A DNA stretch of 24,000 nt from Ferrimonas sp. YFM (GTDB lineage: Bacteria > Pseudomonadota > Gammaproteobacteria > Enterobacterales > Shewanellaceae). The first letter of the stretch is position 1; the number at the start of each line of letters is the position of its first letter. The DNA lies in the NCBI RefSeq assembly GCF_030296015.1, contig NZ_AP027368.1:3496839-3520838 (forward strand). Reading direction: 5' to 3'. A program made the translations under genes and the position numbers. This document shows positions 5,524 through 20,154 of the stretch, in pieces. The notes under the pieces were generated by a model, which saw only the letters and a program-made list of their open reading frames with translations, ran no database searches and had not been told where the DNA came from.

Positions 5524-7061
5524 AGGGAAACCGGGTGCTGCTCCTGACTGACCACCCTGGCCTGACGCTCAAGAATTTTCACCACGTCCACCGCCTCTGC
5601 ACCCAGACAGGTGGAGTTATGCCGCTCCGCCTGATGGCGGAACTTGTCGATGTCGGAGCGCTTCACCATGTAACCGGTGACCCGGACCAAGTCGTTGTCC
5701 GACAGGTTGGCGGTGAACATCTTCAGGCCCATGCCAAAGCCGCCGCTGACCAGCCGCTCCAGGGCGCCGGGGTTGTGACGTATGGTCGGGTCCAGGCCAA
5801 AGATGTCGCTGATGCCGCCATCGAAGTATTGATGCATCGGGGCACAGGCGAGGATATGACTCAGGGGATCCGGCTCACTGCCCACGGGGATGCGGGTGCC
5901 GGCGGTCTCCTCCTTGTCGCAGGAGATGCCGGACTGGGAGTGCAGCCTCATCAGGCCGCCTTCACAGTGGATCATCTCCAGATGGTCCACCTGGCGACGA
6001 TAGGCGGCGACAATGCGCTCACCCAGTGCGGTGGCTTCCCGGTCCAGGCCAAAACGACCTGGCAAGCCCTTAGCATCCATCAACAGATTCACCAGTTCCG
6101 CCAGCCCATAGATGCCAAACATGGCGGTAAAGCGGTCCAAGGAAACCAACCCCTCCTTACACAGGAAGTGATGGTCAAAGAAACCGGACTCCACCACCAG
6201 GAAACGGATGCGATGGGTCATGGCACTGGCCATCAGCTCTGAGCAGCGGGGCACCACGTTGTCGATGTAATCCTGCTCACTGCCGTCACACAGCTCATAG
6301 GAGCGCAGCAGATTCAGCCGCAGCAGGGTGTGAGAACCGCCCCCAAGGGGCAGGGCGTTGTAACAACTGACCACCCCGTAGCCCTTATCAAACTCGGCGT
6401 CGATCGCCTCATGGTTGGCCACATGGGGCTTGTTGCAGGCGATGATGTTGTCGGTGACCCGGCGCAGCAGGTCATCCGGGGTCACCCCCTGCTGGTAACG
6501 GAAGGTCAGGTTGGGCACCGACTGGGCCAGCTTGGCATCCACCTTGAGAATCATCCGTCCGACCCGGCTGTCCTCGGGCCCCAGGTTGGCGTGCACAAAA
6601 GAGTCCGGCAGGGTGCGATCCAACCGTTGCCAGAACAGGGTCAGGGCTTTCTCCAGGTCGGCATCGTTCACCCCTTCCACATAGGGCTCCAGCAGCTGGT
6701 CCAGGTGACCGAGGAACACCGGATAACCGGTCACCGACGGCACATTGAGGTAGAGGATGGAGAGGAAGTTCAGCGCCTCATCCAGATCCTGCGGCGGTGC
6801 CATCTCGAGAAACTCACTGCCCTGGGTCATCGCCCTGGCGTAATCCGGCAAGACGTACCTGGGCTTGAATGGGCTCTGACTCTCAAACATGTCATGGAGA
6901 ATGCCACGCTCGAACGCCTGTTCCACCTCTTCGCCATAGGGATTTCTGGGCAGCAGAGACTCCGCCAGCTGGGCCAGGGCCAGCTGTTTCTGCGGCAGGG
7001 TGAGATTGGGATTGGTGATGTGGCCGAGCACGGCCTGCTGTAACTCTTCTATCTGGGACAT
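5514..7061 (-). CDS. yjjI: YjjI-family putative glycine-radical enzyme (substrate unknown)
   Basis: The 515-aa size and pairing with a YjjW-type activase match the family. The C-terminal segment NDLVRVTGYMVKRSD fits an RVxG glycyl-radical motif. Family assignment is from memory of E. coli YjjI/YjjW. Confidence 0.75.
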   Translation of the reverse strand: MSQIEELQQAVLGHITNPNLTLPQKQLALAQLAESLLPRNPYGEEVEQAFERGILHDMFESQSPFKPRYVLPDYARAMTQGSEFLEMAPPQDLDEALNFLSILYLNVPSVTGYPVFLGHLDQLLEPYVEGVNDADLEKALTLFWQRLDRTLPDSFVHANLGPEDSRVGRMILKVDAKLAQSVPNLTFRYQQGVTPDDLLRRVTDNIIACNKPHVANHEAIDAEFDKGYGVVSCYNALPLGGGSHTLLRLNLLRSYELCDGSEQDYIDNVVPRCSELMASAMTHRIRFLVVESGFFDHHFLCKEGLVSLDRFTAMFGIYGLAELVNLLMDAKGLPGRFGLDREATALGERIVAAYRRQVDHLEMIHCEGGLMRLHSQSGISCDKEETAGTRIPVGSEPDPLSHILACAPMHQYFDGGISDIFGLDPTIRHNPGALERLVSGGFGMGLKMFTANLSDNDLVRVTGYMVKRSDIDKFRHQAERHNSTCLGAEAVDVVKILERQARVVSQEQHPVSLWK

Positions 7062-9208: not shown

Positions 9209-9967
9209 TCAGCTCAGGCGACGAATCTGCAGGTTGGCGTCCAGACACTTCTTGCAGGAGAGTTTGCTCTTGATGCCCCGGGCGATGTACTCGGAGACCA
9301 TGCTGTCCAGAGTTTCGTACTGCTCCCGGGTAGCGGGCTGTGTCCAGTTGAAGGCGTTGACTATGGTCAGTATCCCCTCCATCTGAGCCTGACTCCGCTG
9401 GGCTTCGACCAGCTTCTCAATCAGCTTGCTCTCGTAGGCGGTGGACTGACCGTAGAGCTGGAAGTAGATCATCTGTGCCAGCAGGAGCAGGCGTTCATCG
9501 CTCTCCTCCAGTACCCCGGAATCCCTGGCCTCGACGGCGAGCATGTGGATCAGATCGAAGAACCGATTGCACCTGAGCTTGAACCTGTCCACCTTTTCGC
9601 AACTGGCCAGCGGCCACACCTTGGAGTTCACCGACACCGCCCGAAGAGACATAAAACTGCTGCTCTTCATCACCGTCTGGTAGGTGGTGACTATGGGCAC
9701 CAGGAAACGCTCCTGAGGGGTAAGCTCAGGGTGAGTATCGAGAATATCCGGAATGTTGTTGGAGGTGGCACTGCGCAAAAACAGACACAGCAACACATCC
9801 TCCTTACTTTCGAAGAACTTGTAGACCGAACCCGTTGAGGTATTGGCCACCTTGGCAATATCGGAGAACTTGAAAGAAATAATTCCCTGTTCTTCAATTA
9901 GTTGCTCAGCTGCATCCAACAATATCTGGCATTTGTTTTCCGCCTGGGGGGTGTTGGGGCATTGCAT
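9209..9967 (-). CDS. TetR/AcrR-family transcriptional regulator
   Basis: The N-terminal HTH reads ILLDAAEQLIEEQGIISFKFSDIAKVANTSTGSVYKFFESKEDVL. It is transcribed divergently from module 1. Confidence 0.85.
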   Translation of the reverse strand: MQCPNTPQAENKCQILLDAAEQLIEEQGIISFKFSDIAKVANTSTGSVYKFFESKEDVLLCLFLRSATSNNIPDILDTHPELTPQERFLVPIVTTYQTVMKSSSFMSLRAVSVNSKVWPLASCEKVDRFKLRCNRFFDLIHMLAVEARDSGVLEESDERLLLLAQMIYFQLYGQSTAYESKLIEKLVEAQRSQAQMEGILTIVNAFNWTQPATREQYETLDSMVSEYIARGIKSKLSCKKCLDANLQIRRLS

Positions 9968-10326
9968 ATTTTATTTCTTCTACAGACCCATTTTCGCAAA
10001 CGTTACCTTTTCAACAGAATTTTTGTTGTGACTGTCTTCAACAATCAAGCTAACCCAGGTCAGTTTTTGAATTTAGCTCATTAATATTTGCCTATCTCGG
10101 TCACAGAGAAAATTTGTTCAGGATCTGGATCATGAAACAAATTTTCAGCCCAAAACCGATGTGAGTCAGCTCTCAATTTCCCGCCTTCTCCCTCTTCATA
10201 GTGAACCTCAATCGCAAGCAGGCTCCAGTATCCTCGCTGACTTCCATTTTTAAGAGGCAAGGAAAATTCGGTGCCCCCTTGCTGGCGCGATTCAACCCGT
10301 TCGCCATTCCAACAGGTGAGAAAACT

Positions 10327-11850
10327 ATGACAACCGACATCAATAAACGCAGCACGCTGAAAATGCTGGGTGCCATGACCCTGACCGGCGCCGCTGCCCC
10401 ATTCGCTGCACAGGCCGGCTCCTGTGACCACTCCAAGGTCCAGTGGGACGACACCTATGAGGTGATCTGCGTAGGGTCCGGCTTTACCGGGCTGGCCGCC
10501 GCCATCGAAGCCAAACGCAAGGGCGCCCGCTCGGTACTGGTGATTGAGAAGATGCCCTATTGCGGCGGCAATGGCGTCATCAACGCAGGTCAGGCCTGCT
10601 TCGCCGACACTCCGCTGCAGAAAAAGCTGGGCATCAAGGACTCCGCAGAGCTGATGGTCAATGACCAGCTCAAGGCAGGGCGCGGCATCGCCAGCCGCGA
10701 GCTGCTGGAGCACAACGCCAAGCTGGGGCCTTACGCCTTCCAGATGACCAAGGAGTGCGGTGCCGTTTACCTAGATTTCTGCCAACAGCCCGGCGGTCAC
10801 TCAGCCCCTCGCAGCCACCAGGTGGTGGAACGCTCAGGAGCTGGCATCATCCGTCCCATGCTGGCTGAATGTGAGCGTCAGGGCATCACGGTGCTGACCC
10901 GCACCAAGTTTGACGATCTGCTGTTCGATGACGCAGGCCATGTCATCGGTGTCCAGGTCACCAAGGGGCACTACCATGACCGCCCTGCCCTGGGTAAGCC
11001 TGCCAAGCTGCGTGCCGCTAAGGGCGTGGTGATGGCTACCGGCGGCTTTACTCAGAACATCCGTCTGCGCATGGCTCAGGACCCCACCCTGACCGAAGAG
11101 GTGGTCTCCACCAATGCCCCCGGCGCCACCGGCGATGGCCTGGTCGCCATGATGAAGGCGGGGGCCAACCCGGTTCACCTGGCCCACATTCAGTCCGGTC
11201 CCTGGGCCTCCCCGGATGAAGGCGGTTTTGGCTACGCGCCCAATTACGCCATCTTCAACTTCCCCCACTCCATCGCCATCGACCTGATGACCGGCCGCCG
11301 CTTTATGAGCGAACTGGCAGACCGAAAAACCCGGGCCGATGCCGAGCTGCAGCGCCGTGATGCCAAAGGCAACCCTCTGCCAGCGATTCTGCTGACCTCC
11401 AAGAAGCACTCCAGCCAAAACCAGCACAGCCTGGATAACGTGCTGGAAGCCAAGGTGGGGTGGGAATTTGACTCGCTGGAAGCCGTTGCCAAGCACTTCG
11501 ACATCCCTCTGGAGCCTCTTAAGGCCCAGGTGAAGGAGTGGAACGGCTATGTGTCTGCAGGCAAGGACACCCAGTTCGGCAAGCCGATGAACCTGACCAA
11601 GGGTAAGGAGATGTCAGCCCCCTACACCGTTATTCGTCTCTGGCCCAAGGTGCATTACTGCATGGGCGGCGTTCAGATCAACACCAAAGCCGAGGTGATC
11701 GCCGCGGCCTCCGGCGAGCCCATTCCCGGTCTGTACGCCGGCGGCGAAGTTGCCGGTGGCGTGCACGGCGTCAGCCGCCTGGGTGGCTGCTCCATTCCCG
11801 ACTGCCTGGCCATGGGTATCACCGCGGCCCGCTCCATCATGACTGCGTGA
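10327..11850 (+). CDS. Periplasmic FAD-dependent enoate (fumarate/urocanate/acrylate-type) reductase flavoprotein, flavocytochrome c flavin subunit (module 1)
   Basis: The dinucleotide fold is YEVICVGSGFTGLAAA. The family motifs VHYCMGGVQINTKAEV and GLYAGGEVAGGVHGVSRLGGCS correspond to HHTMGG and GANRLGG of Shewanella Fcc3 (from memory). I place the start at ATG 10327 (AGGTGAG upstream), giving MTTDINKRSTLKMLGAMTLTGAAAPFAAQA, a Tat-like KR signal. Confidence 0.8.
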   Translation: MTTDINKRSTLKMLGAMTLTGAAAPFAAQAGSCDHSKVQWDDTYEVICVGSGFTGLAAAIEAKRKGARSVLVIEKMPYCGGNGVINAGQACFADTPLQKKLGIKDSAELMVNDQLKAGRGIASRELLEHNAKLGPYAFQMTKECGAVYLDFCQQPGGHSAPRSHQVVERSGAGIIRPMLAECERQGITVLTRTKFDDLLFDDAGHVIGVQVTKGHYHDRPALGKPAKLRAAKGVVMATGGFTQNIRLRMAQDPTLTEEVVSTNAPGATGDGLVAMMKAGANPVHLAHIQSGPWASPDEGGFGYAPNYAIFNFPHSIAIDLMTGRRFMSELADRKTRADAELQRRDAKGNPLPAILLTSKKHSSQNQHSLDNVLEAKVGWEFDSLEAVAKHFDIPLEPLKAQVKEWNGYVSAGKDTQFGKPMNLTKGKEMSAPYTVIRLWPKVHYCMGGVQINTKAEVIAAASGEPIPGLYAGGEVAGGVHGVSRLGGCSIPDCLAMGITAARSIMTA

Positions 11851-11858
11851 GGTACTCC

Positions 11859-12233
11859 ATGAAACTGAAAACGACTCTGGCCATCGCCTTGGCCTTCTCC
11901 ATGCTGGGCGGTGCCCAGGCGGCGACCCTGACCAAGATGGGCGCCAAACAGGGCCGCAGCTTCCATGAATTCAACTACGAGGACGGCTGCAAGAGCTGCC
12001 ACGATCAGGGGATGCGCAAGCCTCCCTCAGATCAGAGCTGTCAGCAGTGCCATGACTTACCAGAACTGATTGAGGCCACTGCCAACAAGGAGAAGCAGTG
12101 GAAAAACCCTCACAACAACATGCACTACGGTGACAAGGTCCCTTGTATCGAGTGCCACGGCGAGCACAAATCCAAAAAGCCCTTGTGCAGTAACTGCCAT
12201 AACTTTGATTTCAAAAACTTTAATGAAAACTAA
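11859..12233 (+). CDS. Small periplasmic tetraheme cytochrome c (module 1)
   Basis: There are four CXXCH motifs (CKSCH, CQQCH, CIECH, CSNCH) in about 100 mature residues. The signal peptide is MKLKTTLAIALAFSMLGGAQA. GAGG lies 5 nt upstream, and the start is 8 nt after the flavoprotein stop. Confidence 0.9.
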   Translation: MKLKTTLAIALAFSMLGGAQAATLTKMGAKQGRSFHEFNYEDGCKSCHDQGMRKPPSDQSCQQCHDLPELIEATANKEKQWKNPHNNMHYGDKVPCIECHGEHKSKKPLCSNCHNFDFKNFNEN

Positions 12234-12245
12234 GTTATAACTTCT

Positions 12246-12278
12246 AAAAAGGCTCCGCAACGGAGCCTTTTTTGTTTT
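12246..12278 (+). terminator. Rho-independent terminator after the module-1 cytochrome gene
   Basis: The sequence is AAAAAGGCTCCG-CAA-CGGAGCCTTTTTTGTTTT (stem 12251-12257 / 12261-12267). Confidence 0.85.
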
Positions 12279-12595
12279 CACCTTTCCTAATAAATGCGCT
12301 CACACCAGTTTGATTGACCAAAATTGAATCAGCATCAAGAAATAAACTAAGCATCATTAAACCCCCAGTTTCTGCTCAAAGCCCACCCCGCACAAAAGCG
12401 CAATAAAACACCACGAAGATCACGAACTTTCAGACTGCCCGGCGAACTTATTCACCCGCAAATCTCACTTTTGAGTCCTTTACGAGGCGGATCATGAAAC
12501 TTTGTTTCTACCAAAAACCAACGTGATCCACTGCGCATTTTATTTACCCCTGCGGCTGAATAATGTCCCTGTCCAAAACAAACACCAAGGAAAAG

Positions 12596-13312
12596 ATGAT
12601 GAAAAAAACTATTGCAGTTGCCGTTTCCTCTATATTTTTGGCTACTCCATTTATTGCCAATGCCAAGGACCATTCTCCTATTCCAACTCCTCTGGTCAGC
12701 TCCACACACGCCCCTGTTTGGGAAATTCCAGAGGAGTGTCGCGATCCTCTGGCTGAGAAATACATCGCCGGTCTGGAGTCCGGTAAATACACCCTGGCCA
12801 ACATCCCTGCCGATGACACCATCGCCAAAGACAAGCGCCACTGGCTGACCTTCGATGAGAGCGGCAAGAACGTGGTTGAGTGTAAAGATGGCGACATCAA
12901 GAACTCTCCCTCCAACTACTGCTGGAAAGAGCTGTCTGACGCCCCCTCCGTCATGGGTATTGTGTCCATGGGCAAAACCGACCACGCCCCTCACTACCAC
13001 CCTCAGGGCGAGTGCTACTACATCGCCAGCGGTAAGACCGAGACCCTGGCTCAGAACCAGATGCAGTCCATCGAGAAGGGGCAGTACTTCTGGATCAACG
13101 ACTACGCCATCCACAACATCCCCAACCTGAACAGCGAAAAGCTGACCATCTTCTACTGGTACCCAGGTGACGCCAACTGGGGCAGCTTCAAGTACCGCTG
13201 GATCGATGACGTGAAGAACCACCAGCCTGCGGAAGCCGCGTTCCACAAGGTGGATGAAATTCGTAAAGCGGCCTGGGGCTACGGCCCATACGGCACCAAC
13301 GAAGAGAAGTAA
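12596..13312 (+). CDS. Periplasmic cupin-domain protein with a cupin DMSP-lyase-like metal/catalytic motif (module 1)
   Basis: The signal peptide is MMKKTIAVAVSSIFLATPFIANA|KD. Cupin motif 1 is GKTDHAPHYHPQGECYYIASG and motif 2 ends in ..YAIHN. In ORF-track numbering the pattern is H144-x-H146-x3-E150-x-Y152 and H184 (E+34). AAGGAAAAG precedes the ATGATG, so the start is 12596 or 12599. Confidence 0.75.
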   Translation: MMKKTIAVAVSSIFLATPFIANAKDHSPIPTPLVSSTHAPVWEIPEECRDPLAEKYIAGLESGKYTLANIPADDTIAKDKRHWLTFDESGKNVVECKDGDIKNSPSNYCWKELSDAPSVMGIVSMGKTDHAPHYHPQGECYYIASGKTETLAQNQMQSIEKGQYFWINDYAIHNIPNLNSEKLTIFYWYPGDANWGSFKYRWIDDVKNHQPAEAAFHKVDEIRKAAWGYGPYGTNEEK

Positions 13313-13324
13313 AACAGGGGTTTC

Positions 13325-14458
13325 ATGACAATGTTTAAACGTACTCAAACAGCACTGGTGATCACCGCTCTGTTGGCCGGTGCCTCCAGCATGGCCGTTC
13401 AGGCCGAAGATGGCATCGACTTCGGTGGCGCAGTGCGCGTTAACTACGGCCTGAAGATGTACAGCGACGCCTCCAAGGATAAGGGCGGCGACCTGAACTT
13501 CGACATTCTGGCGCTGAAGTTTAACGGCAAGAAGGGCGACTGGGGTCTGGCGGCAGAGTACCGCTTCAACTCCTCCACCAACTTCATCAAGTACGGCTAT
13601 GCCTACTATGATATGGCGCCGGAGTGGCAGCTGCAGTTTGGTGTGACCAAGGTACCCTTCGGCAACCCAGGCTTTATCTCCAACAGCTGGTGGTTTGGCC
13701 TGCCTTACTACCTGGGCTTTGAAGATGACTACGACGTAGGCGCCAAGGCCGTCTACAACAGTGGCGCCTGGCAGACCGACATCGCCTTCTTCAAAAACGG
13801 CGAGTACAGCTCCAGCAACAACAAGGCTTACACCCCTGACCTGTTCAGCGGCATGGTCAACGGCACCCAGTACAACAACGAAGAGATCAACCAAATTAAC
13901 CTTCGCCAGGTCTACACCTACAATGAGGGTGACCTGACGGTTAAGGCGGGTGGCTCCGCTGAGTTTGGCCAGATCTACAACAGCAAGACCACAGACACCG
14001 GTGACCGCTACGGTGTGGCTGTCCACCTGGACGCCACCTACCAGGGATGGAATCTGCAGCTGCAAGCGATGCAGTACGAGTTCGATGCAGAGAACCCTGC
14101 CGGCATGGATGGCAACAAGATCGGTGTCGCCGGTGCCGGATGGCAGTGGGAAGTGGCCTCCAAGGGGCAGATCTACTCCCTGAACATTGCCAAGACCATC
14201 CCCACCAGCTTCGGCAGCATCAAGGTCTACAACGACTTTGGCATGCTGACACCGGACGTGGATGACGCCAGCTTTGATGACAGCTTCCAGAACGTGACCG
14301 GTATGGCCATCGCCGCGGGTCCCATCTACATCATGGCGGACTTCATCCAGGGCAAGAACATGACCTTCTCCACCGAGTTGGACGATCATGTTGGCCTGCC
14401 CCAGGCTGGCGACAGCTGGGATCAACGCATCAACATCAACCTGGGTTACTACTTCTAA
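13325..14458 (+). CDS. Predicted outer-membrane beta-barrel porin (module 1 paralogue)
   Basis: The signal peptide is MTMFKRTQTALVITALLAGASSMAVQA|ED. The sequence is rich in alternating aromatic, Gly, Asn and Asp residues and ends in NINLGYYF, as is typical of OM barrels. It starts 13 nt after the cupin stop. It is a paralogue of 20155-21279. Confidence 0.7.
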   Translation: MTMFKRTQTALVITALLAGASSMAVQAEDGIDFGGAVRVNYGLKMYSDASKDKGGDLNFDILALKFNGKKGDWGLAAEYRFNSSTNFIKYGYAYYDMAPEWQLQFGVTKVPFGNPGFISNSWWFGLPYYLGFEDDYDVGAKAVYNSGAWQTDIAFFKNGEYSSSNNKAYTPDLFSGMVNGTQYNNEEINQINLRQVYTYNEGDLTVKAGGSAEFGQIYNSKTTDTGDRYGVAVHLDATYQGWNLQLQAMQYEFDAENPAGMDGNKIGVAGAGWQWEVASKGQIYSLNIAKTIPTSFGSIKVYNDFGMLTPDVDDASFDDSFQNVTGMAIAAGPIYIMADFIQGKNMTFSTELDDHVGLPQAGDSWDQRININLGYYF

Positions 14459-14527
14459 CCCCTTGGGCACCGGGGTGACTGACACCACCCCGGTCCTATT
14501 TATCTATGTGTTTTCATTCCTGACCTT

Positions 14528-14553
14528 GCCGGCTGACATCAGCCGGCTTTTTT
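14528..14553 (+). terminator. Rho-independent terminator after porin 1
   Basis: The sequence is GCCGGCTG-ACAT-CAGCCGGC followed by TTTTTTAT. The identical sequence recurs after porin 2. Confidence 0.8.
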
Positions 14554-14594: not shown

Positions 14595-15434
14595 TCAGTT
14601 AACTTTGGAATTGGCGATCAGCACCTTCACCACCTCCTCATGCTGAGGAGAGATATCGTGACGAACATAGAAGTTGATGGGGCCTTCCACATCGCCCTTG
14701 GTGGGTCCCTGACAGACCTCCAGCTCAGGGTTGCTCTCAATCATCTTCTGCGGGAGCAAGCCAATGCCGATCCCTTTCTGGATCAATTCTTGTGAAAAGT
14801 CCGGCGTATCTATGGTCATCACCCGATAAAAGTCATCGGTCTGATTCAGTGCCAAAGTCAAATCATGCCAGTGATCCCAGACTCTGGAGTGCGTGATGGT
14901 GGGAACCGGTGACGAAAATGTCACCCGCTTAGATTTTGCCCAGTTAAAATAGAGCACATCCAAAATTTGCCGCTTTCGATACTTAGGCTGATTATCAAAC
15001 AGTCCTTCGGTGATCACTATGTCCGCCTCGCCCTTCTCCATCAAGTGCTTCACCAAGGAAAGCTCCCCGGTCTTAATGTGCAGAAATGAGGAATTAAGCA
15101 TCTCAGGGTCAATGATTGGCGCCACGTATTTCAAATAGAGTCTGGGCTGGGTGACAATGGTCAATGGAGACTTATCGACAAGCTGCTGAGATAAGTTTAG
15201 AAAGTTTTTATAGTTATCAATCACATCGATAGCGACCGGATACAAGATCCGACCATTCTCTGACAGGGTCACCTTGCCTTGTCGTCGCTGAAACAGCTCA
15301 ACCCCAAGATCGGACTCCAGTTTTTTAACAAGATTACTGATATTTGGCTGAGATGTATCCAGTAACTCCGCAGCCTTAGAAAAGCTGTCAAATTCAGCCG
15401 AATAATAAAATGCCAATATTGTTTTTATATTCAT
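14595..15434 (-). CDS. LysR-family transcriptional regulator
   Basis: The N-terminal wHTH reads MNIKTILAFYYSAEFDSFSKAAELLDTSQPNISNLVKKLESDLGVELFQR. I place the start at ATG 15434; the ORF-track start at 15443 is a GTG. The gene is divergent from the module-2 flavoprotein and noticeably AT-richer than its neighbours. Confidence 0.85.
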   Translation of the reverse strand: MNIKTILAFYYSAEFDSFSKAAELLDTSQPNISNLVKKLESDLGVELFQRRQGKVTLSENGRILYPVAIDVIDNYKNFLNLSQQLVDKSPLTIVTQPRLYLKYVAPIIDPEMLNSSFLHIKTGELSLVKHLMEKGEADIVITEGLFDNQPKYRKRQILDVLYFNWAKSKRVTFSSPVPTITHSRVWDHWHDLTLALNQTDDFYRVMTIDTPDFSQELIQKGIGIGLLPQKMIESNPELEVCQGPTKGDVEGPINFYVRHDISPQHEEVVKVLIANSKVN

Positions 15435-15667
15435 CGCTCTCACTATCTCCCCGGCAATAGTTTTCTAAAGCAGTGTAAACCCTTCTCTCCTATGAATGAT
15501 CTTGAATTTCCGATTCTGTGATAACGATTTAATCTGATGGCGATTAAGGAACTGCGGTTTCAGCCCTGTTATTGACGCGCCAACCCTCCCTAAGCGTTTC
15601 CTGATAAATTTGCCAGACGCTTTTATCACAAAACATCTGATAAAATACATTTTCTGTTTGGCCCAAT

Positions 15668-15763
15668 TTTTGTGACCTGAGTCGGCGTGGGTATAGCAAT
15701 TTATTATGTCGAGCTATCCCGGAGCTTGTTCACGTTCGGTTTCAGCATTTTTTTCTATGATTT
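15668..15763 (+). promoter_or_regulatory. Conserved 96-nt upstream cassette, copy A (before module-2 flavoprotein gene)
   Basis: An ungapped alignment to 17959-18054 gives 73/96 identities (hand count). Shared elements:
- TTTTGTGAC at the 5' end
- dyad ATAGC-N15-GCTAT (15693-15717)
- a 26-nt core AGCTATCCCGGAGCTT[G/C]TTCACGTTC, matching at 25/26
- CTATGATTT, a possible -10, at the 3' end. Confidence 0.6.
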
Positions 15764-15830
15764 TCTTACCCCCTATTTAACTCCAATACCTGCTACAGCT
15801 CAGGTATTTGGGTCCACCTAAGGAACTGTA

Positions 15831-17336
15831 ATGAAACGTAGAGATCTACTGAAAGCCGCAGCATTAATACCGGCTGCCGCTGCAGTAACCGCTGCTCCGA
15901 CACAGGCATCTCCTATGACCAGAAAGTTTGATGAAGAATACGACCTTGTGATCGTAGGCAGTGGTTTTGCGGGATTGGCTGCGGCTTACTCTGCAAATAA
16001 AAATGGATTAAACAAGATCCTTGTTATAGAAAAGATGGGTGCCTTCGGAGGCAACTCGGCAATCTGTGGTGGCATTGCCTGTATGCCTGATACCCCGCTG
16101 CAGAAAAAACACGGCATCGAAGACTCACCGGAGCTTCTGGTGAAAGATATGCTCAAGGTCGGCCGTGGATTCAACCACCCCGAACTCTGTGAAGCGATGG
16201 CGAAAGGCGCCAGCACCGCCTATGAGATGTTGATGGAGTGTGGTGTTGAGTTCAAAGACAAGCTGATTCGTCTGGGTGGACACAGCGCTCCCCGAGGCCA
16301 CATCCCAACCAATGCCTCCGGAGGCGGCATTGTCGTCCCCATGCACAAATACCTGCTGAACAAAGGGGTTAAATTCCAGAATCGCACCAATGTCTCCGCC
16401 ATCATTCGCGACGATGCAAACAACGTTTGCGGTGTAGAGGTTCAAACAGATTTCGACCCCAATACAGGGAGCGCCAAAGGAGAGATGACCTACGGATCCC
16501 GCCACGGCATTGTGATCGCGACAGGTGGCTGGGGCAACGACAAGAAATTCGTTAAGACCACCATGCCTGCCTACGCAAACTTGAAGGCGAGCGCCCAGCC
16601 AGGGGCCACGGCAGAGATGATTAAGTCACTGCTGTCATTAGGGTCACTGCCCATCATGCTGGACATGTACCAGTTGGGTCCTTGGGGTTCCCCGGATGAG
16701 CGTCCGGCAGGCCCCGGCTCCTTCTTCGCAGATTACGCCTTCAGTGAGGGGATTGCCGTGGATCCCATGACGGGTAAGCGCTTTGTCAACGAGCTGTCAT
16801 CTCGTCGCACCCGCTCCGAAGCTGAGCTGGAGGTAATGAAGAAAGGCACCAAAGCAAAACCAAACTACCCCTTTACCTTCTGTGGTGAGGAGACCACAAA
16901 GCGCTCGGAAGGCTTCCGCGCTGCCTACCGAGACGGAGCAGTGCGAAAGTCAGACTCGGTCGCAGAGCTGGCTAAGCTGCATGGTGTCGATGAGACACAG
17001 TTGGCCCAAACCATCGCAGAGTGGAACGAGATCGTAGAGGGCAAGCCGGATCCCTTTAATAAACCCCTGGACGTAAGAACACAACTCAAGCCGCCCTTCT
17101 ACTCATTCAGGTTGTCACCTGTACTGCACTACTGCATGGGCGGAGTCGCCATTACGGCAGACGCCCAGGTCGTGGATGTGACCACCTGTGAACCGATCAA
17201 TGGGTTGTTTGCCGCGGGTGAGATTACCGGAGGCGTTCACGGAATGGATCGCTTGGGAGGTTGCTCCTCCGTAGACGGTCTGGTCTTTGGTCAAATTGCC
17301 GGCAGGGCCGCTGCAAAATATAAGGCGAATGTGTAA
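15831..17336 (+). CDS. Periplasmic FAD-dependent enoate reductase flavoprotein, flavocytochrome c flavin subunit (module 2)
   Basis: The twin-arginine signal is MKRRDLLKAAALIPAAAAVTAAPTQA. The dinucleotide fold is YDLVIVGSGFAGLAAA. The motifs LHYCMGGVAI and GEITGGVHGMDRLGGCS are shared with 10327-11850, of which it is a paralogue. Confidence 0.85.
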   Translation: MKRRDLLKAAALIPAAAAVTAAPTQASPMTRKFDEEYDLVIVGSGFAGLAAAYSANKNGLNKILVIEKMGAFGGNSAICGGIACMPDTPLQKKHGIEDSPELLVKDMLKVGRGFNHPELCEAMAKGASTAYEMLMECGVEFKDKLIRLGGHSAPRGHIPTNASGGGIVVPMHKYLLNKGVKFQNRTNVSAIIRDDANNVCGVEVQTDFDPNTGSAKGEMTYGSRHGIVIATGGWGNDKKFVKTTMPAYANLKASAQPGATAEMIKSLLSLGSLPIMLDMYQLGPWGSPDERPAGPGSFFADYAFSEGIAVDPMTGKRFVNELSSRRTRSEAELEVMKKGTKAKPNYPFTFCGEETTKRSEGFRAAYRDGAVRKSDSVAELAKLHGVDETQLAQTIAEWNEIVEGKPDPFNKPLDVRTQLKPPFYSFRLSPVLHYCMGGVAITADAQVVDVTTCEPINGLFAAGEITGGVHGMDRLGGCSSVDGLVFGQIAGRAAAKYKANV

Positions 17337-17686
17337 TGAAAAGCTCCATAGTCGTTGCCGCTATCACTGTACTGCTGTCATGGGGAGCCTTAGCCGCGCC
17401 CAAGACGATGAAACCCCACCACGCCGACGCCATGGGCGGCAATATGACTTGTCGCACTTGTCACACCGCCAAAGGTAAATTCCAGCGTCCCAGCGCAGAA
17501 ACCTGCATCGAGTGCCATGGCGGCATGAGCGAGATCCCTATTCAAGCCAACCGCTGGGATAAAGATCCACACGGCTCTCACCACTATGAGGATCTGCTGG
17601 AGTGCACCCTGTGCCACTCAGAGCATCAATCATCGAGAGCAATCTGCTCAGACTGCCATGTGGTCGAATTCTCTAATCTAAAATAG
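17336..17686 (+). CDS. Small periplasmic tetraheme cytochrome c (module 2)
   Basis: There are four CXXCH motifs (CRTCH, CIECH, CTLCH, CSDCH) and a signal peptide MKSSIVVAAITVLLSWGALAA. The start overlaps the flavoprotein stop (TAATG). Confidence 0.9.
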   Translation: MKSSIVVAAITVLLSWGALAAPKTMKPHHADAMGGNMTCRTCHTAKGKFQRPSAETCIECHGGMSEIPIQANRWDKDPHGSHHYEDLLECTLCHSEHQSSRAICSDCHVVEFSNLK

Positions 17687-17721
17687 AGCTGTTTGTAATA
17701 AATCAGAATCGAAATTAATAG

Positions 17722-17800
17722 TGGCTGGAAAGTTGCCTTAGGGTTATTAAATTAACATGGCAACCACCAGCCATTTTCATTTCCAGCCATCTTTTCATTT
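17722..17800 (+). terminator. Long imperfect hairpin followed by a T-rich tandem direct repeat; probable terminator or attenuator after the module-2 cytochrome gene
   Basis: TGGCTGG-AAA-GTTGCC (17722-17737) pairs with GGCAAC-CA-CCAGCCA (17759-17773) around a 21-nt AT-rich loop. It is followed by CCAGCCATTTTCATTT (17767-17782) and CCAGCCATCTTTTCATTT (17783-17800). Either CCAGCCA could pair with the 5' arm. Confidence 0.4.
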
Positions 17801-17958
17801 AGCCACCCCATACCGAACCCTGCCTCAGCAAGCACTAATTAGACTGACTTAATCGACTGTCAAGCCCTTTCTAAACTGATCACTGCGACTCTCTAAAAAA
17901 ATAAAACCTGACATCACAAAAAGGCCATTCAAAAAAACATATTTTTCACCAAGCCTTG

Positions 17959-18054
17959 TTTTGTGACGTAAATCCAGCTCGGCATAGCAAATTCTTATAC
18001 CCAGCTATCCCGGAGCTTCTTCACGTTCATTCTTAATATTTTTCCCTATGATTT
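17959..18054 (+). promoter_or_regulatory. Conserved 96-nt upstream cassette, copy B (before the HAL-like gene)
   Basis: This is collinear with 15668-15763, with the dyad ATAGC-N15-GCTAT at 17984-18008 and the core at 18003-18028. The genes downstream of the two copies are unrelated, so the similarity is not a relic of CDS duplication. Confidence 0.6.
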
Positions 18055-18094
18055 ATCCACACCTAAACGATACAAAGAACCAATGGAGTTCCTG

Positions 18095-19762
18095 ATGAAA
18101 CACGTATTATCAACGAGCATTTGTGCTCTTTCTCTGGCGGTATCCTTCGGCATCCAAGCCGAAACCTTTCAACTGACTGGCCAGGATCTGACTGTCGACC
18201 AACTCTGGGAAGCCGCGGCCAAAGGCAATGACGTTACCCTGAGCCGTGCCGCCTGGAAACGAGTGGAAGACTCCTATCAAACCACCATCGACGCCGCGAA
18301 GAAGGGCATCGAAATCTACGGCCTGACCACCAACTTTGGCGACCTCAAAGATCAGGAAGTAGTCAAAGGCGACATCGAAGCCGAGCCTAACCGCACTAAG
18401 TCCATTGAGTTCAACAAGCGTCAGTTGCGTATTCAGGCCGCCGCAATGGAACCCTACTTCGAAGATCGCATCGTTAAGATGGGTATGATCATCCGTCTGA
18501 ACCAGATGGCAGCCGGCCTGACCGGTATGACCACCGAAACCGCCAAGTACTATCAGACCTTCATCAACAACGATGTCATCCCCATGGTACCTGGTCGCGG
18601 TTCCCCTGGCGTGAACGACCTGAACTGGGCCACTCACATAGGCCTGGCGATGATCGGTGAGTGGGATGTTCACTACAAGGGCAAGAAAGTGCCTGCCACC
18701 AAGGCGATGGCCGACCTGGGCATCAAGCCTCTGGAACCCTTCGGCCTGGATGGCATCTCCATCCTGTCCAACAGCAACATCTCCATGGCCATCACCGTGG
18801 AAGCGATCCAGCAATCCCAGCACCTGCTGGATATCTCTCCCTACATCGTGGCTACCTCGCTGGAGTGTCTGAACGGTAACGTCTCTCCCTTCCTGTGGCA
18901 CTCCATCGAAGGCAAAGGGATGCCCCAGGGGCACGTGGCTGCAGAGCCGATCCTTAAAGCTCTAGAGGGCTCCTTCCTGTGGCAGCCCAATGAAGAGCGC
19001 TACCTGCAGGATCCGCTGACCTTCCGCTCCTCCCACTGGACGCTGGCCGCCGCTCACGAAGAGCTGGACCAGCTGAGAGATCTGGTTGAGAAACAGCTTA
19101 ACCACACCTCTGATAACCCCATGGTGACTATCGAAGGCCGCACCGACATGTGGTACTCCGACACCCCAGTGGTGAAGTCCCTGATGGTCGATCCCAAGAA
19201 GGGCAGCTACGTTAACTCCAACTCCGCCTTCGATAACACTCAAATCGCGATTCAGGTTGAGTCTCTGGCCACAGCCATGGCTCACGTGATTCACAACTCC
19301 GGTTGGCGCAGCCTGCAGGTGGGCATGGACCATCGTACTCACCTGCCCAAGTACCTGGTGGCCAAGTCCAACAAGGGGGGTGACGGTTTCGCCAACATCA
19401 TCCAGGCGATCTCCGGCTACTACGCCGAAGCCGCAGGCTTGACCAACAACGTCACCCTGTACGGTCTGCCGACCTCCAACATCATTGAGGAGACCTACAA
19501 CAACGTGAACGTCACCGCCGAGCGTCTGAAGCAGATGAACGACATCGCCTATGAGGTGTTCTCCTACGAGATTCTGCACATGACCCAAGGTGCCCAGATG
19601 CGTCGCGACGAGCAGGGTTACAAGCTGGGTAAAGGCACCAGTGCTCTGCTGAAGGAATACCGCAAAGTCGTGCCCTTTGTAGACAAGGATCGCCCATTCA
19701 CCAAAGACGTAAACAACGGCGTCAAGTTCCTCAAGCAGCTTGATGTAACTACCCTGCTGTAA
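18095..19762 (+). CDS. Signal-peptide-bearing aromatic-amino-acid-lyase (HAL/PAL) family protein lacking the MIO Ala-Ser-Gly triad (module 2)
   Basis: Family motifs occur along the whole length: IYGLTTNFG (cf. YGINTGFG), LDGISILSNSN (cf. KEGLALLNGT), LQDPLTFRS (cf. QDPYSLRC), TSDNPMV (cf. SDNPLV) and LPTSNIIEE (cf. LPTSANQED). Where HAL has GSVGASGDLAPLAH, this protein has GSPGVNDLNWATH. I place the start at ATG 18095 (GGAG 6 nt upstream), giving MKHVLSTSICALSLAVSFGIQA|ETF. Confidence 0.8.
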   Translation: MKHVLSTSICALSLAVSFGIQAETFQLTGQDLTVDQLWEAAAKGNDVTLSRAAWKRVEDSYQTTIDAAKKGIEIYGLTTNFGDLKDQEVVKGDIEAEPNRTKSIEFNKRQLRIQAAAMEPYFEDRIVKMGMIIRLNQMAAGLTGMTTETAKYYQTFINNDVIPMVPGRGSPGVNDLNWATHIGLAMIGEWDVHYKGKKVPATKAMADLGIKPLEPFGLDGISILSNSNISMAITVEAIQQSQHLLDISPYIVATSLECLNGNVSPFLWHSIEGKGMPQGHVAAEPILKALEGSFLWQPNEERYLQDPLTFRSSHWTLAAAHEELDQLRDLVEKQLNHTSDNPMVTIEGRTDMWYSDTPVVKSLMVDPKKGSYVNSNSAFDNTQIAIQVESLATAMAHVIHNSGWRSLQVGMDHRTHLPKYLVAKSNKGGDGFANIIQAISGYYAEAAGLTNNVTLYGLPTSNIIEETYNNVNVTAERLKQMNDIAYEVFSYEILHMTQGAQMRRDEQGYKLGKGTSALLKEYRKVVPFVDKDRPFTKDVNNGVKFLKQLDVTTLL

Positions 19763-19770
19763 CACCCATC

Positions 19771-19809
19771 AACGGCGAGCAGATGACCTCTCTCTCTGCT
19801 CGCCGTTTT
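19771..19809 (+). terminator. Rho-independent terminator after the HAL-like gene
   Basis: A perfect 12-bp stem AACGGCGAGCAG / CTGCTCGCCGTT (19771-19782 / 19796-19807) is followed by TTCCTGT. The T-tract is weak. Confidence 0.65.
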
Positions 19810-20154
19810 CCTGTATTAATCGACACTAAGAAAAATGATCAGGAGTTTATTCGGGCCAGATAAATTCAAACCCTGAACGACTCCACGCGTCGGAAGCAGA
19901 CGAAAATTTAAACCTGCGAAAATATCAGAACATGTACTAACCATTGATTCCTTATTCGGCCTCATTGTTTAAGGCATCTAAAAAACACAGTGGTTAATAG
20001 AGCATTATTAGTCACCCGCATTTAAGCAACGCCCCAATTGCCAGAAGCGTTTAATAACTCAGCACGCAATATCACCAAACATTGCCTCTGCGATTTTTTA
20101 AAGCTTCTCCATACAAACAAGAGTTAAATCATCTAGCATAATATAGGTGTTTTC

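What the first reader, a model, noticed from the sequence alone, without database searches (positions are those of the whole stretch)
12596..13312. Small periplasmic cupin carrying the H-x-H-x3-E-x-Y ... H(+34) site of cupin DMSP lyases
**Seen in sequence.**
- The protein has a Sec signal (ANA|KD cleavage-type site).
- The core reads GKTDHAPHYHPQGECYYIASG ... YAIHN.
- In ORF-track numbering this gives H144, H146, E150, Y152 and H184.

**Established knowledge (from memory).**
- The cupin DMSP lyases use the same spacing.
- DddK has H56/H58/E62/Y64/H96.
- DddW has H81/H83/E87/H121.
- DddQ has H125/E129/Y131/H163.
- In these enzymes the Tyr two residues after the Glu is implicated in catalysis.

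**Inference.**
- At about 225 mature residues it is much shorter than the known periplasmic DMSP lyase DddY, and its E-to-H spacing differs from DddY's.
- If it is a DMSP lyase it would therefore be a distinct exported family.
- It sits directly after a putative acrylate-type reductase and directly before a porin.

**Caveat.** The generic cupin motif also contains HxH...E...H, so the Glu-x-Tyr and the genomic context are the only specific clues.
Basis: partly seen in the sequence, partly recalled or inferred. Interest (0 to 1): 0.8.

Follow-up and report, generated by a model that had tools for sequence, protein, structure and literature searches.

The report
Exported DddK-like cupin beside acrylate reductase
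A small exported metal-binding enzyme sits exactly where the known DMSP-cleaving enzyme DddY sits next to a bacterial acrylate-respiration system. It resembles the SAR11 DMSP lyase DddK and not DddY, so it is a good but untested candidate for a new enzyme family that releases the climate-relevant gas dimethyl sulfide.

Summary
An ORF at 12596-13312 (+) in Ferrimonas sp. YFM encodes a 238-aa cupin with a signal peptide. H133, H135, E139, Y141 and H173 are invariant in its family.

- **Closest solved relative: DddK.** The family profile gives E 5e-9 against DddK, and the next protein scores 8e-4. Foldseek on an AF2 model (pLDDT 86) puts DddK first, at 1.7 Å.
Tyr122 aligns to Y200, and cage residues Trp26 and Phe117 align to W110 and W195.
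- **It is not a truncated DddY.** hhalign probability is 0.8%.
- **The upstream flavoprotein looks like ArdA.** It is 60% identical to the characterised S. woodyi acrylate reductase ArdA and has the same active-site loop. In S. woodyi, dddY follows ardAB, and the flanking YjjI genes are syntenic.
- **A second module has the same layout.** In place of the cupin it carries a periplasmic ergothionase-like lyase.

Best reading (about 0.5): a periplasmic metal-dependent lyase that cleaves DMSP, or a close onium-propionate, to acrylate for respiration.

Caveats:
- There is no biochemistry.
- F. aestuarii has both the DddY module and this one.
- Sister clades pair with different reductases.
- A Reinekea homologue sits in a trimethylamine cluster.
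- Most Cupin-DLL proteins are not DMSP lyases.

The family is small, unnamed, and includes eukaryotic homologues.

The parts
12596..13312 (+). Exported cupin, clade c1 of an unnamed family. 238 aa, signal peptide residues 1-23, family-specific N-terminal extension about 24-105, DddK-like cupin barrel about 106-215.
   Evidence: ORF and sequence. Pfam Cupin_2 exactly at threshold and no NCBIfam hit. DddK is the best PDB hit by sequence and by fold. Residue conservation.
12992..13018 (+). Motif 1, H133-Y-H135-P-Q-G-E139-C-Y141: two metal-binding His, the Glu ligand and the putative catalytic Tyr.
   Evidence: Aligns to DddK H56/H58/E62/Y64. Invariant in the family.
13112..13114 (+). H173, third His metal ligand (motif 2).
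   Evidence: Aligns to DddK H96. Invariant.
13193..13195 (+). Y200, equivalent of DddK Tyr122, which hydrogen-bonds the substrate carboxylate.
   Evidence: Profile and MAFFT alignments. Invariant in all relatives examined. Role of Tyr122 in DddK taken from PMC10686828.
12923..12925 (+). W110, equivalent of DddK Trp26 in the cation-pi cage for the sulfonium group. It lies in a conserved W-K-x-L-x-D strand.
   Evidence: alignment. Invariant. Cage residues of DddK from PMC10686828.
10327..11850 (+). ArdA-like periplasmic flavoprotein (FAD_binding_2), the putative acrylate reductase catalytic subunit. The mechanical ORF starts at 10201.
   Evidence: TIGR01813 flavocytochrome c. 60% identity by BLASTP (57% in the MAFFT alignment) to S. 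woodyi ArdA P0187. Identical loop HIQSGPWASPDEGGFGY..NY..NFPHSIAID. FccA H365 is Gly here, while R402, H504 and R545 are kept.
11847..12233 (+). ArdB-like tetrahaem cytochrome c (4 CxxCH, signal peptide).
   Evidence: Cytochrom_c3_2. Sequence. ArdB is required for ArdA activity in S. woodyi.
12246..12272 (+). Terminator-like hairpin (12-bp stem plus T-run) that separates ardAB from the cupin-porin pair.
   Evidence: It parallels the prediction that S. woodyi dddY is not in the ard operon.
13325..14458 (+). Outer-membrane porin-like protein (377 aa, signal peptide, C-terminal ...NLGYYF), 13 nt after the cupin stop. Probable entry route for the substrate.
   Evidence: The S. algae homologue hits Porin_O_P. 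59% identical to the module-2 porin and 88% to the F. kyonanensis c1 porin. Terminator-like sites at 14469-14547.
9209..9967 (-). Divergent TetR-family regulator, conserved next to all three cupin-flavocytochrome module types.
   Evidence: TetR_N. Homologous TetR genes in L001, L002, L006, L008-L014 and L088.
12489..12500 (+). 12-mer GGATCATGAAAC, repeated at 10127-10138 upstream of ardA. Candidate shared regulatory site.
   Evidence: about 0.016 expected by chance. Conserved about 110-127 nt upstream of the cupin gene in F. kyonanensis and F. aestuarii.

Best explanation
The gene encodes a Sec-exported, transition-metal-dependent cupin lyase of the DddK-like (Cupin-DLL) type.

Proposed mechanism:
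1. A small zwitterionic onium-propionate enters the periplasm through the co-transcribed porin. DMSP is the most likely substrate; DMSOP and beta-alanine betaine are the closest alternatives.
2. Its carboxylate binds the metal held by H133, H135, E139 and H173, and hydrogen-bonds Y200.
3. Its charged head sits in an aromatic cage formed by W110, W195 and Y187 or W188.
4. Y141 abstracts the C-alpha proton, giving beta-elimination to acrylate plus DMS.
5. The adjacent ArdAB-like flavocytochrome c reduces the acrylate to propionate as a terminal step of anaerobic respiration.

Shown: the residues, the fold similarity, the export signal, the gene order, and the ArdA-like nature of the reductase.

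Inferred: the chemistry, the substrate, and the physiological coupling.
For: 1. **DddK is the closest solved protein.**
   - phmmer gives E 7e-5.
   - The family profile gives 5e-9, against 8e-4 for the next protein.
   - Foldseek of the AF2 model (pLDDT 86, pTM 0.82) ranks six DddK chains first: E 2.6e-9, rmsd 1.7 Å, 25% identity.
2. **All six residues that define Cupin-DLL are present and conserved.** These are H133, H135, E139, Y141, H173 and Y200.
3. **The DddK cage residues have aromatic equivalents.** Trp26, Phe117 and Trp110 align to W110, W195, and Y187 or W188.
4. **The upstream flavoprotein is ArdA-like.** It is 60% identical to characterised S. woodyi ArdA, shares its substrate loop, and falls in the ArdA superclade. 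ArdAB is specific for acrylate.
5. **The position matches dddY.** In S. woodyi and F. aestuarii, dddY follows ardAB. The YjjI-like gene and its activase flank both the S. woodyi locus and this window.
6. **Linkage to a flavocytochrome is the rule.** It holds in every bacterial context examined except Reinekea.
7. **The window's second module supports the logic.** It puts a periplasmic ergothionase-like lyase in the same slot. Lyase-flavocytochrome coupling has been shown experimentally in Shewanella.
8. **No DddY in the host.** No DddY orthologue from Ferrimonas sp. YFM or F. kyonanensis appeared in a search that found five other Ferrimonas DddYs.
9. **Shared porin in F. aestuarii.** The porins of the DddY module and the cupin module are 89% identical.
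Against: - No activity data exist for any family member.
- F. aestuarii has a complete DddY-ArdAB module and a cupin-ArdAB-like module 40 kb apart. This suggests non-identical roles.
- Clade c2 keeps the same cupin active-site residues but pairs with a reductase only 37% identical and with a different substrate loop. Clade c3 pairs with an ArdA-like reductase in which the loop Tyr is Phe. The family therefore probably spans several substrates.
- The Reinekea homologue sits beside Tmm/Tdm/Dmm genes and has no reductase. That fits a trimethylamine-releasing reaction at least as well.
- Lei et al. found that most Cupin-DLL proteins are not genuine DMSP lyases, and that even Shewanella/Ferrimonas DddYs were hard to show active.
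- Pfam DMSP_lyase (PF16867) does not hit the protein.
Confidence: 0.5

Rival explanations
1. The chemistry is the same (metal-assisted beta-elimination that supplies the reductase with an enoate), but the physiological substrate is not DMSP. Candidates are beta-alanine betaine (giving TMA plus acrylate), DMSOP (giving DMSO plus acrylate), or another algal onium compound.
For: - The Reinekea homologue lies directly downstream of an FMO-type Tmm, within a Tdm/Dmm/ammonium-transporter cluster.
- The other characterised Shewanella lyase-flavocytochrome pairs all release trimethylamine from betaines. The window's own second module uses an ergothionase-like lyase.
- F. aestuarii already has DddY for DMSP.
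- Known cupin DMSP lyases also cleave DMSOP.
Against: - Tmm also oxidises DMS (established knowledge, from memory), so the Reinekea context does not exclude DMSP.
- No cupin is known to eliminate trimethylamine.
- DMSP is by far the most abundant acrylate precursor in marine habitats.
- The F. aestuarii porins of the two modules are 89% identical.
Confidence: 0.22
2. The protein is a periplasmic hydro-lyase or isomerase that makes the reductase substrate from a non-onium precursor. An example would be dehydration of 3-hydroxypropionate to acrylate, or conversion of a related beta-substituted acid.
For: - The cupin fold supports dehydratase-like and isomerase chemistry (cupin-type phosphoglucose isomerases appear among weak hits).
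- The context only requires that an enoate be produced.
Against: - The conserved aromatic cage equivalent to DddK Trp26/Phe117/Trp110 points to a cationic head group.
- DddK scores orders of magnitude better than any isomerase.
Confidence: 0.1
3. The protein is a cupin with an unrelated role: an oxygen-dependent dioxygenase, a decarboxylase, or a periplasmic metal- or ligand-binding accessory protein. On this reading it is linked to the respiratory genes by regulation only.
For: - The 3-His-1-Glu site is generic to cupin dioxygenases. Quercetinase YxaG is the second-best PDB family.
- Pfam sees only Cupin_2, exactly at threshold.
- Most Cupin-DLL members have unknown functions.
Against: - Gene linkage to periplasmic enoate reductases persists across three diverged clades and several genera.
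- An O2-dependent enzyme fits poorly in an anaerobic-respiration module.
- The Tyr at E+2, the second Tyr and the aromatic cage are specific to the DddK-type site.
Confidence: 0.13

Closest known systems
DddK (Pelagibacter ubique cupin DMSP lyase; PDB 5TFZ, 6A53, 6A55, 8HLF)
   Same: - Best sequence and fold match.
- Identical metal ligands and spacing: H-x-H-x3-E-x-Y, with the third His 34 residues after the Glu.
- The second Tyr is kept (Y122 to Y200).
- The W-K-x-L-x-D strand carrying cage residue Trp26 is kept, as is the aromatic residue at Phe117.
   Different: - Only about 25% identity.
- DddK is a cytoplasmic protein of about 130 aa, reported only in SAR11.
- This protein has a signal peptide and an N-terminal extension of about 85 residues with no structural match (TM-score to query 0.38).
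- The loop between the Trp strand and motif 1 is 7 residues shorter.
- It has extra conserved residues (D129, H130, N174, C140).
- It is linked to respiration genes.
DddY (periplasmic DMSP lyase; PDB 5XKX/5Y4K)
   Same: - Periplasmic.
- Follows ardAB and is followed by a porin in Ferrimonas and Shewanella.
- Same H-x-H-x3-E-x-Y motif.
- Presumed role of feeding acrylate to ArdAB.
   Different: - No detectable profile similarity (hhalign probability 0.8%), and DddY is absent from the fold hits.
- DddY is about 415 aa with a large cap domain and a Glu-to-His spacing of about 68.
- DddY modules carry LysR and AcuI genes, whereas the cupin modules carry TetR.
Lyase-coupled periplasmic flavocytochrome c respiration modules of Shewanella (DddY-ArdAB; histidine-betaine trimethylammonia-lyase with UrdA; SO_3057 and SO_3299 with their flavocytochromes)
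   Same: - The architecture matches: flavoprotein, tetrahaem cytochrome, and an exported lyase that manufactures the electron acceptor.
- The window contains one module of the published ergothionase-like type next to the cupin module.
   Different: - The lyase here belongs to a cupin family not mentioned in those studies (no 'cupin' in either text).
- A dedicated porin is part of the unit.
DddU, DddQ, DddW and DddL (other cupin DMSP lyases)
   Same: - Same Cupin-DLL motif logic.
- DddQ appears as a weaker fold hit (rank 12) and a marginal sequence hit (E 1.9).
   Different: - These are cytoplasmic or membrane-associated, mostly alphaproteobacterial, and recognised by PF16867 or annotated as DMSP-lyase family.
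- This protein is not hit by PF16867 or by any NCBIfam model.
- DddU could not be compared directly because no sequence was available.

Membership tests
Cupin-DLL superfamily (Lei, Alcolombri & Tawfik) | Motif 1 with two His, Glu and Tyr (HxHxxxExY) | tested here: met
   H133-x-H135-x3-E139-x-Y141. Invariant in the family. Definition taken.
Cupin-DLL superfamily (Lei, Alcolombri & Tawfik) | Conserved His of motif 2, acting as metal ligand | tested here: met
   H173 aligns to DddK H96. Invariant.
Cupin-DLL superfamily (Lei, Alcolombri & Tawfik) | [quoted passage not shown] | tested here: met
   Y200 aligns to DddK Tyr122. Invariant in all relatives.
Cupin-DLL superfamily (Lei, Alcolombri & Tawfik) | Transition-metal dependence and TPEN inhibition | not testable with these tools
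   Needs purified protein.
Cupin-DLL superfamily (Lei, Alcolombri & Tawfik) | Recognised by Pfam PF16867 (DMSP_lyase), the model used to collect the superfamily | tested here: not met
   No hit at E<=10 for the window protein. Clade c3 scores 2.9e-4 and c2 scores 0.2. True DddY itself scores only 0.023, so this is a weak criterion.
DddK family | Significant sequence and fold similarity to P. ubique DddK | tested here: met
   Profile E 5e-9. Foldseek E 2.6e-9, rmsd 1.7 Å over about 103 columns, 25% identity.
DddK family | Single-domain cytoplasmic cupin of about 130 aa | tested here: not met
   238 aa with a signal peptide and an N-terminal extension of about 85 residues. It is therefore DddK-like but not a DddK orthologue.
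DddK family | Cation-pi cage Tyr21/Trp26/Phe108/Trp110/Phe117 | tested here: inconclusive
   Trp26 aligns to W110 and Phe117 to W195 clearly. The Phe108/Trp110 register is ambiguous (I185/Y187 or F186/W188). The Tyr21 equivalent is unclear. No coordinates were available to check geometry.
DddK family | DMSP (and DMSOP) lyase activity | not testable with these tools
   Enzyme assay required.
DddY family | Sequence or profile homology to DddY, including the cap domain (about 400-420 aa) | tested here: not met
   hhalign of A1 against the DddY alignment A2 gives probability 0.8%. DddY is absent from the PDB sequence and fold hits.
DddY family | Periplasmic location and linkage to ardAB | tested here: met
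   Signal peptide. Gene order ardA-ardB-cupin-porin, compared with ardA-ardB-dddY(-porin).
DddU family | Homology to Amylibacter or Phaeobacter DddU | not tested
   No DddU sequence or structure was available in the tools. Indirect evidence only: DddU is cytoplasmic, alphaproteobacterial and annotated as DMSP-lyase family, unlike this protein.
Lyase-coupled periplasmic flavocytochrome c respiration module | Exported FAD_binding_2 flavoprotein plus tetrahaem cytochrome c, lacking the fumarate C1-carboxylate-binding His/Thr | tested here: met
   (H365 is Gly, while R402/H504/R545 are kept). (ArdA-like).
Lyase-coupled periplasmic flavocytochrome c respiration module | Adjacent exported enzyme that produces the reductase's substrate | tested here: inconclusive
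   Adjacency and export are shown, and linkage is conserved in all but one context. Product formation is not testable here.

The most novel reading that the evidence does not exclude
This is the founding bacterial member of a previously unnamed, exported DMSP/onium-lyase family, which would be a seventh cupin Ddd family and the second periplasmic one.

- Its three bacterial clades each manufacture a different respiratory electron acceptor for a dedicated flavocytochrome c.
- Its eukaryotic homologues keep every active-site residue, and one lies on a contig with 14-3-3 and EMP70 genes. They could be a second, non-Alma type of protist or algal DMSP lyase.
Probability: 0.15. Interest if true: 0.85.

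Novelty: new variant of a known kind. Interest (0 to 1): 0.66.

Why it matters
- **Relation to the known catalogue.** DMSP cleavage is the main biological source of atmospheric DMS. A 2026 review lists only nine bacterial ddd genes, with Alma1 as the sole algal lyase, and notes that many DMS-producing organisms lack all of them.
- **What a confirmed family would add.** A DddK-like exported lyase wired to an acrylate reductase would add a new family and a second route for DMSP-dependent anaerobic respiration in marine sediments and guts. It would also give markers for metagenome surveys.
- **Breadth of the pattern.** Three cupin clades, each with its own reductase, and eukaryotic homologues suggest a wider set of exported onium-compound lyases. 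That would extend the recent finding that Shewanella manufactures its electron acceptors in the periplasm.
- **If the substrate is not DMSP.** The family would still mark uncharacterised respiratory substrates.

Tried and rejected
- **Truncated or diverged DddY:** rejected. hhalign probability is 0.8%, and DddY is absent from the PDB sequence and fold hits.
- **Generic sugar-isomerase or oxalate-decarboxylase cupin:** rejected as closest relative. These score E >= 5e-3, against 5e-9 for DddK.
- **PF16867 or NCBIfam membership:** no hit. True DddY also barely hits PF16867, so this test is not informative.
- **Simple replacement of DddY by the cupin:** rejected as a general rule. F. aestuarii has both and S. 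algae has DddY plus clade c2. It may still hold for strain YFM and F. kyonanensis, where no DddY was found.
- **All cupin-linked reductases are ArdA orthologues:** rejected. c2-linked reductases are only 35-39% identical and have a different loop.
- **Taxonomy of the eukaryote-like homologues:** cluster look-ups gave no names.
- **Literature on strain YFM:** none found.
- **Active-site distances in the model:** not measurable because coordinates are not exposed.
- **The 678-aa antisense ORF at 12452-14488:** it overlaps the cupin and porin genes, both of which have conserved homologues. I took it to be a shadow ORF and did not test it further.
Full report
**1. The observation**

- The + strand ORF begins with ATG-ATG at 12596/12599 and ends with TAA at 13312. 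An AAGGAAAAG ribosome-binding site lies just upstream.
- The protein is identical to an NCBI 'cupin domain-containing protein' of Ferrimonas sp. YFM (P0001). That identifies the source of the window.
- The N-terminus MMKKTIAVAVSSIFLATPFIANA|KD is a classic Sec signal. Every bacterial homologue has an equivalent, and AlphaFold2 leaves residues 1-23 disordered.
- The core GKTDHAPHYHPQGECYYIASG...YAIHN is present. Counting from 12596, the residues are H133, H135, E139, Y141 and H173.
- All five are invariant in 14 homologues of 42-82% identity. They are also conserved in about 45 further relatives.
- The mature protein is about 215 residues, not 225.

**2. What the protein resembles**

- Pfam sees only Cupin_2, exactly at its threshold. 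NCBIfam sees nothing.
- Against all PDB sequences, the best hits are the four DddK entries. The single sequence gives 7e-5.
- A 14-sequence profile gives 5e-9, and the next family (quercetinase YxaG) scores 8e-4.
- An AF2 model built on the family alignment is confident (pLDDT 86, pTM 0.82). Foldseek against the PDB ranks six DddK chains first: E 2.6e-9, rmsd 1.7 Å over about 103 columns, 25% identity. TM1459-type cupins follow, and DddQ is at rank 12. DddY does not appear.
- DddK H56/H58/E62/Y64/H96 align to H133/H135/E139/Y141/H173, with the same Glu-to-His spacing of 34.

- DddK Tyr122 hydrogen-bonds the substrate carboxylate (PMC10686828). It aligns to the invariant Y200.
- Of the DddK cation-pi cage (Tyr21, Trp26, Phe108, Trp110, Phe117), Trp26 aligns to the invariant W110 within a shared W-K-x-L-x-D strand.
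- Phe117 aligns to W195, which is Phe in the other clades.
- Trp110 aligns to Y187 or W188, depending on register.
- The six residues that define the Cupin-DLL superfamily are therefore all present.

Differences from DddK:
- This protein has a signal peptide.
- It has an N-terminal extension of about 85 residues with no structural match.
- The loop before motif 1 is shorter.
- D129, H130, C140 and N174 are additionally conserved.

It is not a cut-down DddY. A profile-profile comparison with a 10-sequence DddY alignment gives probability 0.8%.

**3. The neighbourhood**

- Upstream lie a TetR regulator (9209-9967, minus strand), a flavocytochrome-c flavoprotein (10327-11850) and a tetrahaem cytochrome (11847-12233).
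- The flavoprotein keeps R402, H504 and R545 of fumarate reductase FccA but has Gly at H365. This is the signature Bertsova et al. describe for dddY-linked reductases.
- It is 60% identical by BLASTP (57% in the MAFFT alignment) to S. woodyi ArdA (P0187, named 'Acrylate reductase flavoprotein subunit' in UniRef).
- It shares the ArdA loop HIQSGPWASPDEGGFGY-xxNY-xIxNFPHSIAID and WPKVHYC-GG.
- ArdAB was shown to be a periplasmic enzyme specific for acrylate. It supports DMSP-dependent anaerobic growth, and dddY is the next gene.
- The S. woodyi locus and this window both carry a YjjI-like glycyl-radical enzyme and its activase on the far side. The loci are therefore positionally related, and the cupin occupies the dddY slot.
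- A strong terminator-like hairpin follows ardB (12246-12272). The cupin and a porin-like gene (13325-14458) are 13 nt apart and are followed by terminators. This matches the prediction that S. woodyi dddY is transcribed separately from ardAB.
- A 12-mer, GGATCATGAAAC, occurs upstream of both ardA and the cupin (about 0.016 expected by chance). It is conserved upstream of the cupin in two other Ferrimonas species.

**4. The family and its contexts**

An exhaustive profile search of 1.84 billion representatives finds only 28 clusters at E<1e-30. The family is small.

| Clade | Members | Neighbouring genes |
|---|---|---|
| c1 | This window, F. kyonanensis, F. aestuarii, Shewanella sp. 0m-11, metagenomes | TetR, ArdA-like reductase with the 'NY' loop, cytochrome, cupin, porin |
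| c3 | Several Shewanella and F. kyonanensis. Motif HYHREMECY, with T129/A130/Y174 | Sister ArdA-like reductase whose loop Tyr is Phe, then DUF3299 and a porin |
| c2 | S. algae, Paraferrimonas, S. intestini and others | Same cupin active-site residues as c1. Reductase only 35-39% identical with a different loop (IQTGHW...GWSNALLSI). A second outer-membrane channel gene is present in most c2 loci |

- One c2 member, in Reinekea thalattae, has no reductase. It lies downstream of an FMO-type trimethylamine monooxygenase, within a Tdm/Dmm/ammonium-transporter cluster.
- Many other relatives look eukaryotic. One (P0022) lies on a contig with 14-3-3 and EMP70 genes. They keep every active-site residue.
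- A distant bacterial subgroup has Phe instead of the E+2 Tyr.

**5. Relation to DddY in genomes**

- A search with F. senticii DddY (verified against PDB 5XKX at 2e-69) found orthologues in F. senticii, F. aestuarii, F. sediminum, F. balearica and an uncultured Ferrimonas. It found none from strain YFM or F. kyonanensis.
- F. aestuarii carries two modules on one contig: AcuI...ArdA-ArdB-DddY-porin-LysR and TetR-ArdA-like-ArdB-cupin-porin. Their two porins are 89% identical.
- S. algae has DddY and clade c2.
- The cupin is therefore not simply a substitute for DddY, although it may be one in YFM.

**6. The parallel module**

- The window's second unit runs: LysR (14595-15443, minus strand), flavocytochrome (15831-17336), cytochrome (17336-17686), a 559-aa aromatic-lyase-family protein (18083-19762), and a porin 59% identical to the first (20155-21279).
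- Its lyase carries a signal peptide and lacks the Ala-Ser-Gly MIO motif. It matches ergothionase (6S7J, 2.4e-61) far better than histidine ammonia-lyase (1e-30).
- This is the type of module recently shown in S. woodyi and S. oneidensis to release trimethylamine from histidine betaines. The resulting urocanate-type acids are respired by the linked flavocytochrome.
- The cupin occupies the same slot in its own module. This is the strongest contextual argument that it is the substrate-generating lyase.
- Neither of those papers mentions cupins.

**7. Mechanism proposed**

1. A small zwitterion enters through the porin.
2. Its carboxylate binds the metal held by H133, H135, E139 and H173, and hydrogen-bonds Y200.
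3. Its onium head sits among W110, W195 and Y187 or W188.
4. Y141 removes the C-alpha proton.
5. Beta-elimination yields acrylate and the neutral leaving group.
6. The ArdAB-like enzyme reduces the acrylate.

DMSP is the most probable substrate, for three reasons: the similarity to DddK, the correspondence with the dddY slot, and its abundance. I put this at about 0.5.

Alternatives:
- A different onium substrate such as beta-alanine betaine or DMSOP (0.22). The Reinekea context and the coexistence with DddY support this.
- A hydro-lyase or isomerase (0.10).
- An unrelated cupin function (0.13).

Shown here: sequence, conservation, fold similarity, export signal, gene order, and the ArdA-likeness of the reductase. 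Inferred: the metal, the chemistry, the substrate and the coupling.

**8. Novelty**

- A June 2026 review lists nine ddd genes (L/Q/W/K/Y/U/P/D/X), six of them cupins, with Alma1 as the only algal lyase. This family is none of them.
- It fails the DddK architecture test and the DddY homology test.
- Pfam PF16867 does not recognise it.
- It could not be compared with DddU directly. DddU is cytoplasmic, alphaproteobacterial and annotated as DMSP-lyase family.
- I rate it a new variant of a known kind: a new exported branch of the Cupin-DLL lyases, built into the known lyase-flavocytochrome respiration scheme.
- Interest is 0.66. It is a specific, testable candidate with wider implications (three clades, eukaryotic homologues), but it has no biochemical support and there are real contrary signals.

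Noticed in passing
window 14595-21279: A second lyase-reductase module: LysR (minus strand), flavocytochrome c flavoprotein (15831-17336), tetrahaem cytochrome (17336-17686), a signal-peptide-bearing, MIO-less aromatic-lyase-family protein (18083-19762), and a paralogous porin (20155-21279). The lyase's best PDB match is ergothionase 6S7J at 2.4e-61. The module matches the trimethylammonia-lyase/flavocytochrome respiration modules recently described in Shewanella.
   Followed up: partly
window 4624-7061 (minus strand); L089 527-2984: A YjjI-like glycyl-radical enzyme and its radical-SAM activase flank the ard-type cluster both here and in S. woodyi. This suggests positional orthology of the two loci. 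Their function in this context is unknown.
   Followed up: partly
L088 9894-12340; L011-L014, L076, L081, L083: A third cupin clade (motif HYHREMECY; T129/A130/Y174 instead of D/H/N) follows a sister ArdA-like reductase whose loop Tyr is Phe. It is itself followed by a DUF3299 protein and a porin. F. kyonanensis has both this module and the c1 module.
   Followed up: partly
L001 6929-11848; L002 6851-12271; L075, L077, L087: Clade c2 cupins keep the c1 active-site residues. They pair with a flavocytochrome only 35-39% identical to the window's, with a different substrate loop (IQTGHW...GWSNALLSI). In these loci a second outer-membrane channel gene is also present. A different respired substrate is implied.
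   Followed up: partly
L004 1-10807 (Reinekea thalattae): A c2-type cupin with no reductase lies directly downstream of an FMO-like (Tmm-type) monooxygenase. It is next to Tdm-like (DUF1989+GCV_T), DmmA-like and ammonium-transporter genes. This hints that some family members feed trimethylamine or DMS oxidation.
   Followed up: no
L090 6649-7740; P0017-P0031, P0042: Eukaryote-like homologues from metagenomes keep all active-site residues (D129, H130, H133, H135, E139, Y141, H173, N174, Y200). Several have their own N-terminal signal-like segments. P0022 sits on a contig with 14-3-3 and EMP70/TM9SF genes. The lineage could not be determined.
   Followed up: partly
window 10127-10138 and 12489-12500; L008 8983; L009 9018: The 12-mer GGATCATGAAAC is shared by the ardA and cupin upstream regions (about 0.016 expected by chance). 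It is conserved about 110-127 nt upstream of the cupin gene in F. kyonanensis and F. aestuarii. It is a possible operator or activator site.
   Followed up: partly
L009 10002-11111 and L091 10437-11522 (F. aestuarii): The porins of the cupin module and the DddY module in one genome are 89% identical, while each is only about 42% identical to the window's porin. This points to recent duplication or gene conversion, and is consistent with similar substrates.
   Followed up: no
P0033, P0037, P0041, P0044, P0053: A distant bacterial subgroup of the family has E-C-F-Y, with Phe at the E+2 'catalytic' position and Tyr one residue later. In DddY, DddL and DddW a Tyr-to-Phe change abolishes activity, so these proteins probably do something different.
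   Followed up: no
window 10327-10420: The ArdA-like flavoprotein's export signal reads ...INKRSTLKML..., with Lys-Arg instead of the twin Arg found in F. aestuarii (SRRSTLKKL) and S. woodyi (GRRNFIKG). This is an unusual but known Tat variant.
   Followed up: no
window 12452-14488 (minus strand): A 678-aa antisense ORF spans the cupin and porin genes. I took it to be a shadow ORF because both sense-strand genes have conserved homologues. I did not test it.
   Followed up: no
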